A stretch of DNA of 64,000 nt, taken from assembly GCF_009914755.1 (NCBI RefSeq), contig NC_060926.1; one strand, given 5' to 3'. The position numbers and the translations under genes were made by a program. Below the pieces are notes generated by a model. It had not been told where the DNA came from. It ran no database searches and saw nothing but the letters and a program-made list of their open reading frames with translations. Source of the DNA: the human T2T-CHM13v2.0 reference genome, Homo sapiens. Position 1 is the first letter of the stretch. Each line of letters opens with the position of its first letter. Of this stretch, positions 28,303-28,733 are shown in pieces.

Positions 28303-28733
28303 GACAAGCCTAGCTCTATCGCCCAGGCTAGAATGTAGTGGCGTGATCTCAGCTCACTGCAACCTCCAACTCCCTGGTTCAAGTAATTCTCCTGCCTCAG
28401 CCCCCCGAGTAGCTGGGATTACAGGCATGTGCCACCCTCATGTTTGGTTCCAAAATTCTCTAGACCAGTTAAATGGGGCCTCTGTCTGTTTATAACAAAG
28501 GCATGGAGAGGCTGATGAAATTTTTCCTAGGAAGAAGTACTCTCTTTTTCTCATTTGTCTTGAACAAGTTCACAATCTTTGCTCACAGACCCACCATTGA
28601 AGCACTCCCATTTAGCCCCAGGTAATTTTTGTATTTTTAGTAGAGACGGGGTTTCACCATGTTGGCCAGGTTGGTCATGAACTCCTGACCTCAGGTGATC
28701 TGCCCACCTTGGCCTCCCAAAGTGCTGGGATTA
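28303..28733 (-). mobile_element. AluSx lacking poly(A) and 5' ~25 nt, split by a 187-bp insert
   Basis: Alu right arm 28303-28436; linker and left arm 28623-28733; no TSD. Confidence 0.9.
28436..28622 (-). repeat. Inverted copy of 37663-37849
   Basis: 184/187 identity to the reverse complement by manual alignment. Confidence 0.95.

What the first reader, a model, noticed from the sequence alone, without database searches (positions are those of the whole stretch)
28436..28622. 187-bp inverted templated insertion inside an Alu, copied from unique DNA 9 kb away
Seen: the Alu is cut after GCCACC and resumes at TAATTTTTGT. The intervening 187 bp is the reverse complement of 37663-37849 with only 3 mismatches, all transitions. 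About 9 Alu bases are replaced, and the donor ends resemble them (CCTCATG vs CCACCATG; GCCCCAGG vs GCCCAGC). There is no poly(A) or TSD. Known: microhomology-flanked templated insertions are signatures of Pol-theta end joining or MMBIR template switching. Inference: this is a fixed germline repair scar, much younger than the Alu (1.6% divergence). It implies physical contact between sites ~3 kb and ~12 kb upstream of the XDH TSS, and it may have moved a distal regulatory segment closer to the promoter.
Basis: partly seen in the sequence, partly recalled or inferred. Interest (0 to 1): 0.82.

Follow-up and report, generated by a model that had tools for sequence, protein, structure and literature searches.

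The report
Repair-copied 187-bp patch inside an Alu
A broken Alu repeat 3 kb upstream of the human XDH gene was patched long ago with an inverted copy of 187 bases of unique DNA from 9 kb away; this is a real but ordinary scar of a kind catalogued about a thousand times in the human genome.

Summary
Window 28436-28622 is the reverse complement of 37663-37849, with 184 of 187 bases identical and no indel. The three differences are non-CpG transitions. The T2T assembly holds exactly these two copies, whereas the flanking Alu arm gives at least 1032 candidates in the same search. Alignment with 8 other Alus in the window shows one minus-strand Alu split at this point with 9 nt missing. There is no poly(A), target-site duplication or filler.

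This is a templated repair insertion. It best fits the "repair-mediated duplications" of Pace et al. 2009 (PMC2671141), which were found by this same criterion: 1,136 in human, mostly donors in cis. It also fits class-2 templated sequence insertions (PMC5110952).

It does not fit the Pol-theta signature (3-30 bp, template within about 30 bp) or the MMBIR signature (template within 100 bp). Perfect microhomology is 1 nt at one junction and 0 at the other.

The age is loose: 3.6-16 My by point estimate. Copying errors could make it younger. Fixation, primate distribution and any regulatory effect could not be tested. Neither copy overlaps a listed RefSeq functional element. Interest is low.

The parts
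28303..28436 (-). Left arm of the acceptor Alu (the 3' part of the minus-strand SINE). It ends in GCCACC, and its last C (28436) is shared with the donor copy.
   Evidence: Alignment with 8 window Alus. Rfam Metazoa_SRP hit 28304-28437 on the minus strand, E 0.02, below gathering as expected for an Alu. Inverted match to the partner Alu.
28436..28622 (+). Acceptor copy: a 187-nt (186 nt plus 1 shared C) inverted duplicate of unique DNA. It replaces 9 nt of the Alu.
   Evidence: 184/187 identical to revcomp 37663-37849 with no indel. Only 2 copies in the assembly. No poly(A)/T, TSD or filler.
28623..28735 (-). Right arm of the acceptor Alu (the 5' part of the SINE). It resumes at TAAT and lacks about 26 nt of the Alu 5' end.
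   Evidence: alignment. Rfam Metazoa_SRP hit 28641-28751 on the minus strand, E 4.9e-5. At least 1032 genomic candidates, 40 of 40 scored at 94-100% identity.
37663..37849 (-). Donor (template): unique intergenic DNA 12.2 kb upstream of the XDH start. It is intact in place.
   Evidence: The 751-nt locus 37250-38000 matches only itself and the acceptor in the assembly. No Rfam family over it. No notable ORF. Its flanks do not continue the homology.

Best explanation
This is a one-off germline repair-mediated duplication.

Proposed steps: a double-strand break arose inside an old minus-strand Alu 3.0 kb upstream of the XDH start. One resected 3' end, most simply the top-strand end ...GCCACC, paired with almost no homology at a site 9 kb away on the same chromosome (or sister chromatid), on the opposite strand. 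It was extended for about 187 nt, came off, and was joined to the other side of the break. Nine Alu bases were lost.

The result is a conservative inverted copy with the donor left intact. It is most likely a neutral scar with no function.

Shown: the copy, its uniqueness, the split Alu, the 9-nt loss, and the absence of retrotransposition marks. Inferred: the break, the order of steps, which end primed, and neutrality.

The broad claim, a single templated repair or replication scar, I put at about 0.95. The specific SDSA-like route is what I score at 0.6.
For: - 184/187 identity in one gapless tract.
- Exactly two copies in 3.1 Gb. The donor locus is otherwise unique. As a positive control, the Alu arm gives >=1032 candidates in the same search.
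- The two Alu arms are collinear, in the same orientation, and only 9 consensus columns apart. So the Alu is the acceptor.
- There is no poly(A)/T, TSD or filler.
- A random donor would lie within +-9.3 kb with probability 6e-6. The mechanism must therefore depend on proximity.
- Pace et al. 2009 (PMC2671141; abstract, Introduction, Results parts 1-2, section 14) found 1,136 such TE-interrupting two-copy insertions in human. Of these, 824 had the donor within 5 kb and 58 were intrachromosomal beyond 5 kb. Proximal inserts had mean 162 bp and median 147 bp. Junction deletions were 1-15 nt. None of 39 inspected proximal cases had a poly(A).
- The 187 nt and 9-nt loss here fall inside those ranges.
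Against: - The donor is 9.0 kb away, outside the <5 kb class that Pace et al. treat as confident RDs.
- Perfect microhomology is 1 nt (left) and 0 nt (right), below their 2-9 nt range. Every one of their 39 inspected proximal junctions had microhomology and/or filler.
- Flank similarity is at chance level (5/13 and 2/12).
- With so little homology, SDSA cannot be told from fork template switching or from ligation of a pre-made fragment.
- No empty site from another primate was available, so the ancestral 9-mer, the true junctions and the date are inferred.
Confidence: 0.6

Rival explanations
1. Replicative template switching (FoSTeS/MMBIR type). A stalled or collapsed fork in the Alu switched to a template 9 kb away on the opposite strand, copied 187 nt, and switched back 9 nt from where it left.
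For: - The copy is inverted, in cis and close by.
- Junctions have 0-1 nt homology and no filler.
- The acceptor Alu is one of an inverted Alu pair with spacers of 1.2-1.6 kb (I3 at 91%, I4 at 86%), a possible fork obstacle. That inverted Alus stall forks is recalled, not tested.
- A (TG)37 tract lies about 165 bp from the donor.
Against: - The MMBIR-linked templated insertions defined in PMC8421209 (passages) are inverted copies of templates within 100 bp, with microhomology at the borders. Here the distance is 9 kb and microhomology is <=1 nt.
- The precise return to within 9 nt of the departure point is as easily explained by a two-ended break.
- There is no copy-number change or further switch nearby. 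This is the only >=93% non-self duplicate in the 64 kb.
Confidence: 0.2
2. End joining captured a ready-made fragment (a class-2 templated sequence insertion). The fragment would be a cDNA of a local transcript, or a free DNA fragment copied from the donor, ligated into the break by NHEJ.
For: - No TSD and no poly(A), a 9-nt microdeletion, 0-1 nt microhomology, and an intact donor.
- Experimental TSIs measure 73-414 bp with a median of 191 bp. Class-2 TSIPs show these same junction features (PMC5110952, text parts 1-2).
Against: - A free fragment or cDNA has no reason to come from 9 kb away; P is about 6e-6 for a random donor. A nascent local RNA would be the exception.
- The hub's gene table lists no gene or transcript over the donor.
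- No RNA family matches there.
Confidence: 0.12
3. Polymerase-theta-mediated end joining (TMEJ) produced the templated insertion.
For: It is a templated insertion at a break with a small deletion. TMEJ can make inverted templated insertions (PMC7165422 passages).
Against: - In PMC7165422 (passages) the scars are 3-30 bp and the templates are typically within 30 bp.
- Primary synthesis tracts there are rarely longer than 10 bp, and longer insertions are multi-round.
- Fewer than 0.1% of repairs there use distal templates.
- Here there is a single uninterrupted 187-nt tract from 9 kb away, with <=1 nt microhomology.
Confidence: 0.04
4. Not a repair scar at all. The alternatives are an unrecognised low-copy transposable element or small-RNA retrocopy, an assembly artefact, or the footprint of a 9-kb inversion made by staggered breaks.
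For: Inverted duplicates can flank inversions (recalled). The genome search scores only the best candidates and could miss old diverged copies (notes).
Against: - There are two copies only, no RNA family, and no poly(A) or TSD.
- Three substitutions between the copies argue against a duplicated-read artefact in a T2T assembly.
- Undoing an inversion of the spacer would place the two Alu arms 9 kb apart in opposite orientation. That is implausible, since they now abut collinearly with only 9 nt missing.
Confidence: 0.02

Closest known systems
Repair-mediated duplications (RDs) of Pace, Sen, Batzer & Feschotte 2009, PLoS Genet (PMC2671141)
   Same: - The defining picture is identical: an annotated TE split by >=50 bp of non-TE DNA that has exactly one other copy in the genome, on the same chromosome, with the donor intact and no poly(A).
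- The size (187 bp) is near their proximal mean of 162 bp.
- The 9-nt deletion lies within their 1-15 nt range.
- An opposite-orientation example is described (the ACSBG2 exon).
   Different: - The donor is 9.0 kb away, so the event falls in their 58 intrachromosomal >5 kb cases rather than the 824 'confident' proximal ones.
- Perfect microhomology is 1 nt, below their 2-nt counting threshold, and there is no filler.
- I could not see whether their Table S1 lists this locus (supplements closed). XDH does not occur in the main text.
Class-2 templated sequence insertions / TSIPs (Onozawa & Aplan; PMC5110952)
   Same: No TSD, no poly(A), microdeletion and minimal microhomology at the junctions, and an intact donor. 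The size is close to the experimental median of 191 bp.
   Different: - TSIs are reported as coming from distant regions and as enriched for transcribed sequence (RNA-derived). Here the donor is 9 kb away in cis and is not in an annotated transcript.
- Polymorphism is unknown here. Given 3 substitutions, the event is probably too old to be polymorphic.
Pol-theta templated insertions (TINS) and MMBIR-linked templated insertions (MMB-TI)
   Same: DNA copied from a nearby template at a break or fork, often in inverted orientation.
   Different: TINS are 3-30 bp from within ~30 bp. MMB-TIs are defined with templates within 100 bp and with microhomology at the borders. This is a single 187-nt tract from 9 kb away with <=1 nt microhomology.

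Membership tests
Repair-mediated duplication (Pace et al. 2009) | A TE split into two same-orientation fragments >=50 bp apart whose consensus positions abut within +-30 bp | tested here: met
   the two Alu arms are collinear, 187 bp apart, with 9 consensus columns missing. Both arms are minus-strand SRP-like.
Repair-mediated duplication (Pace et al. 2009) | The inserted sequence is found at exactly one other place in the genome | tested here: met
   2 of 2 candidates, self and donor; the donor locus is otherwise unique. Control: the Alu arm gives >=1032 candidates. Caveat: the search may miss old diverged copies.
Repair-mediated duplication (Pace et al. 2009) | Donor and acceptor more than 50 bp apart (not tandem) | tested here: met
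   9,040 bp lie between the copies.
Repair-mediated duplication (Pace et al. 2009) | Donor within 5 kb of the acceptor (the 'proximal' set the authors treat as confident RDs) | tested here: not met
   The distance is 9.0 kb. The event belongs to their intrachromosomal >5 kb group (n = 58).
Repair-mediated duplication (Pace et al. 2009) | No poly(A)/T of >=5 nt at an insert end and no TSD | tested here: met
   The T-run after the right junction is the Alu's own, present in all 8 aligned Alus.
Repair-mediated duplication (Pace et al. 2009) | Junction hallmarks: deletion (1-15 nt), microhomology (2-9 nt) and/or filler | tested here: inconclusive
   The 9-nt deletion meets the criterion. Perfect microhomology is 1 nt on the left and 0 on the right, and there is no filler. 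The ancestral 9-mer is unknown without an empty site.
Repair-mediated duplication (Pace et al. 2009) | Empty acceptor site in an outgroup species | not testable with these tools
   No primate genomes are held. The genome search covers only this assembly and prokaryotes.
Pol-theta TMEJ templated insertion (TINS) | Insert of 3-30 bp copied from flanking DNA, typically within 30 bp. Primary tracts are rarely >10 bp. | tested here: not met
   One gapless 187-nt tract from 9 kb away, compared with PMC7165422 passages.
MMBIR-linked templated insertion (MMB-TI, MMBSearch definition) | Inverted copy of a template within 100 bp, with microhomology at the borders | tested here: not met
   Inverted: yes. 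Distance is 9,040 bp and microhomology <=1 nt, compared with PMC8421209 passages.
Class-2 templated sequence insertion (TSIP) | No TSD or poly(A); NHEJ-type junctions (microdeletion, microhomology, non-templated bases); donor intact | tested here: met
   compared with PMC5110952 text.
Class-2 templated sequence insertion (TSIP) | Derived from RNA or transcribed sequence; polymorphic among humans | not testable with these tools
   No expression or population data are held. The hub's table shows no gene at the donor.
L1-mediated retrocopy (class-1 TSIP, processed retrocopy) | Target-site duplication, poly(A) tail, and insertion at a TTTT/A-type site | tested here: not met
   No TSD and no poly(A) at either insert end.
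Interspersed repeat / transposable element | Many dispersed copies | tested here: not met
   Two copies only, against >=1032 candidates for the Alu arm.

The most novel reading that the evidence does not exclude
The patch did more than scar.

First, it created a 187-bp, 98.4%-identical inverted repeat pair (longest perfect tract 124 bp) bracketing 9 kb of XDH upstream DNA. That pair could mediate recurrent inversion of this segment in human populations.

Second, or alternatively, it moved a -12 kb sequence to -3 kb in a lineage where basal XDH promoter activity is unusually low (PMC7879036 passages). The event dates to roughly the hominid period, so it could have contributed to hominid-specific XDH regulation.

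Nothing here supports either reading, and nothing excludes them.
Probability: 0.03. Interest if true: 0.5.

Novelty: new member of a known kind. Interest (0 to 1): 0.15.

Why it matters
It matters little by itself. It is a clean, well-delimited example of a catalogued mutational process: repair-mediated capture of nearby chromosomal DNA. Its donor distance (9 kb) and near-absent microhomology place it at the edge of that class.

It could serve as a phylogenetic presence/absence marker. With an outgroup empty site, it could also test whether such patches are copied with errors. It is a reminder that 'templated insertion' does not by itself identify Pol theta or MMBIR. A role in XDH regulation is pure speculation at present.

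Tried and rejected
- **Unrecognised TE:** rejected. There are two copies genome-wide, and the positive control shows the search does see repeats.
- **Small-RNA gene or retrocopy as donor:** Rfam at E<=1 over 37300-38200 gave one match, SCARNA7 at E 0.43, on the TG repeat and not on the donor. Rejected.
- **Coding exon in the donor:** 11 stop-to-stop frames of >=40 aa overlap 37500-38000 and the longest is 96 aa. None was pursued.
- **L1-mediated insertion:** no TSD or poly(A).
- **Inversion with staggered breaks:** rejected by logic, because it would require the two Alu arms to have been 9 kb apart and inverted beforehand.
- **Other pieces of the same event:** no other non-self duplicate at >=93% identity in the 64 kb.
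  - In-register matches of the last 9 insert bases to the 9-mers of the 8 window Alus are 3-6 of 9. The best is 6/9, to one CCCAG-type Alu. Random window 9-mers reach >=6/9 in 1235 of 200000 draws.
  - The first 10 insert bases match 0-2 of 10.
  - So the resemblance is suggestive at the right end only, and only if the ancestral 9-mer was of that type.
- **Supplementary Table S1 of PMC2671141:** closed. Whether this locus is already listed is unknown.
- **Literature on the locus:** a search for XDH + Alu + upstream + insertion + primate returned 4 papers. I checked only one beyond its listing, and it concerns an unrelated polymorphic AluYa5 in XDH (passage). A search for 'repair-mediated duplication' returned 9 papers, none about XDH judging by title and abstract start.

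Full report
**1. The observation.**

Reading the two stretches and an inverted-repeat scan of 26000-40000 show one long inverted pair that is not Alu against Alu. Its arms are 28433-28625 and 37660-37852 (193 nt, 97%).

An ungapped base-by-base comparison gives 184 of 187 identical over 28436-28622 versus the reverse complement of 37663-37849, with no indel. Beyond those ends identity falls to chance: 5 of 13 on the left and 2 of 12 on the right.

The three differences are at 28560 (T/C), 28584 (C/T) and 28613 (T/C). All are transitions and none is in a CpG. The insert contains no CpG and is 42% G+C.

A self-comparison of the whole window at >=93% identity finds this pair and nothing else.

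**2. Copy number.**

A search of the window's own 3.1-Gb assembly with the 187-mer returns two candidates, both scored: the query itself and the donor. The 751-nt donor locus 37250-38000, searched at E<=10, returns itself and the acceptor only.

As a positive control, the adjoining Alu arm 28623-28735 returns at least 1032 candidates in the same search. Forty were scored and all 40 were 94-100% identical.

The tool warns that only the best candidates are scored and that very common words are skipped. Old, strongly diverged relatives of the donor therefore cannot be excluded. The 98%-identical pair is nevertheless a two-copy sequence.

**3. The acceptor.**

A BLAST of the neighbouring uninterrupted Alu against the window finds 10 rows: itself, seven other Alus, and the two arms flanking the insert.

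I aligned eight window Alus with the two arms joined. The arms are collinear and in the same orientation. They lack nine columns, whose window consensus is ACGCCTGGC, between GCCACC and TAAT.

Base 28436 (C) belongs equally to the Alu and to the donor copy, so it counts as 1 nt of microhomology. The right junction has none.

Rfam matches the 7SL/SRP model on the minus strand in both arms, below the gathering score as expected for Alus. That Alus derive from 7SL is established knowledge.

The T-run after the right junction is the Alu's own and is present in all 8 aligned Alus. There is no poly(A)/T, no target-site duplication and no filler.

**4. Direction, and alternatives excluded.**

The Alu is interrupted and the donor's flanks are unique and continuous. 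So 37663-37849 is the template and 28436-28622 is the copy.

An inversion generated by staggered breaks would also leave inverted duplicates. Undoing it, however, would put the two Alu arms 9 kb apart in opposite orientation, which is not credible given their exact collinearity.

Other checks gave nothing:
- No RNA family covers the donor.
- No notable reading frame was found there.
- An assembly artefact is unlikely, because the copies differ at three sites.

**5. Age.**

K = 3/187 = 1.6%. The Poisson 95% range for the count is 0.62-8.77.

| Rate per site per year | Point estimate | 95% range |
|---|---|---|
| 2.2e-9 (used by Pace et al.) | 3.6 My | 0.8-10.7 My |
| 1e-9 | 8 My | 1.7-23 My |
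| 0.5e-9 | 16 My | 3.3-47 My |

An age of 0.2 My or less gives P(>=3 differences) <= 7e-4. A young human polymorphism is therefore unlikely.

Some of the three differences may date from the copying itself, so these ages are upper-leaning.

[quoted passage not shown] The event could therefore be human-specific or shared with African apes. I could not test this.

The Alu differs from a crude 8-copy window consensus at 27 of 242 positions, or 11.2%. The other eight Alus range from 10.3 to 14.5%. That consensus mixes subfamilies and inflates the figure. Even so, the contrast with 3/187 is clear (Fisher p = 7e-5). The insert is much younger than the Alu.

**6. Mechanism.**

The donor lies 9,040 bp away in cis. 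A random genomic donor would lie that close with probability about 6e-6. The process must therefore have searched locally, which favours DNA-templated synthesis from a nearby duplex over capture of a random fragment.

My best reading is SDSA-like repair of a two-ended break:
1. One 3' end primes on the opposite strand 9 kb away with next to no homology.
2. It is extended for about 187 nt in one tract.
3. It is displaced and joined to the other end, with 9 nt of Alu lost.

Priming from the left end (...GCCACC) is slightly favoured. It has the one shared base plus 2 further matches in the preceding 3 bases.

There is a possible annealing site at the right end. The last 9 insert bases match the 9-mer of one window Alu at 6 of 9 in register. 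Three of the 8 window Alus carry the CCCAG type that gives the better matches of 5-6 of 9. Random 9-mers reach 6 of 9 in 0.6% of draws. This depends on an unknown ancestral sequence, and the other five Alus give 3-4 of 9.

Fork template switching, or NHEJ capture of a locally made fragment, would leave the same product. I cannot separate them.

**7. Comparison with the known.**

Pace, Sen, Batzer and Feschotte 2009 (PMC2671141) is the closest precedent. I read the abstract, Introduction, Results parts 1-2 and section 14, plus term passages.
- They screened the human genome for exactly this picture: TEs interrupted by >=50 bp that has one other genomic copy.
- They found 1,136 cases. In 824 the donor was within 5 kb, and 58 were intrachromosomal beyond 5 kb.
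- Proximal inserts averaged 162 bp. Junctions showed deletions of 1-15 nt, microhomology of 2-9 nt and filler. None of the 39 inspected proximal cases had a poly(A).
- They attribute the events to SDSA.

The present case passes their detection filter. It sits in the >5 kb group and has less microhomology than they count.

Class-2 templated sequence insertions share the junction features and the size. Experimental TSIs have a median of 191 bp (PMC5110952, text parts 1-2). They are, however, described as distant and RNA-derived.

- Pol-theta scars are 3-30 bp from within about 30 bp, with primary tracts rarely over 10 bp (PMC7165422 passages).
- MMBIR-linked insertions, as defined in PMC8421209, are inverted copies from within 100 bp (passages).

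**8. Function.**

The acceptor is 3,000 bp and the donor 12,227 bp upstream of the XDH start at 25436 (with the hub's table). Neither overlaps the RefSeq enhancers (27174-27223, 40339-41538) or the silencer (11010-11210) listed by the hub.

[quoted passage not shown] Nothing links those elements to this site.

'Physical contact' between the two sites at the moment of repair follows from any templated model, but it says nothing about stable chromatin contacts.

**9. Whether this instance is in print.**

- XDH does not occur in the main text of PMC2671141. Its Table S1 could not be opened.
- A search for XDH + xanthine dehydrogenase + Alu + upstream + insertion + primate gave 4 papers. I checked only one beyond its listing, and it concerns an unrelated AluYa5 polymorphism in XDH (passage).
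- The locus may well be in that unseen table.

**10. Verdict.**

It is an ordinary member of a known class, and interest is low.

Noticed in passing
window 26857-27146 (+) and 28303-28735 (-): The acceptor Alu forms an inverted pair with an uninterrupted Alu 1.2-1.6 kb to its left (arms 91% and 86% complementary). Both share an unusual variant (GGTCATGAA where the other window Alus have CT[TC]GA). This hints at a common source or at gene conversion between them. Inverted Alus are recalled to be fork obstacles, so the pair is a possible reason for the break.
   Followed up: partly
window 38015-38088: A (TG)37.5 microsatellite (91% matches) lies about 165 bp beyond the donor's upstream end. Rfam's only weak hit in that region (SCARNA7, E 0.43) lies on it and is spurious.
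   Followed up: no
window 28722-28900 and 28100-28302: The acceptor Alu lacks about 26 nt of its 5' end and has only a vestigial A-tail. Both flanks look like LINE-1 sequence (my recall, not tested), so the Alu sits in or between L1 fragments.
   Followed up: no
window 27056-27115 (-) and 28320-28379 (+): Rfam gives sub-threshold mir-3135 matches (36 and 31.9 bits against a gathering score of 80) inside both Alus. These are most likely the Alu-derived part of that model rather than miRNA genes.
   Followed up: no
window 26431-26458: A perfect A28 run lies about 400 bp left of the partner Alu. It is probably the tail of another retroelement.
   Followed up: no
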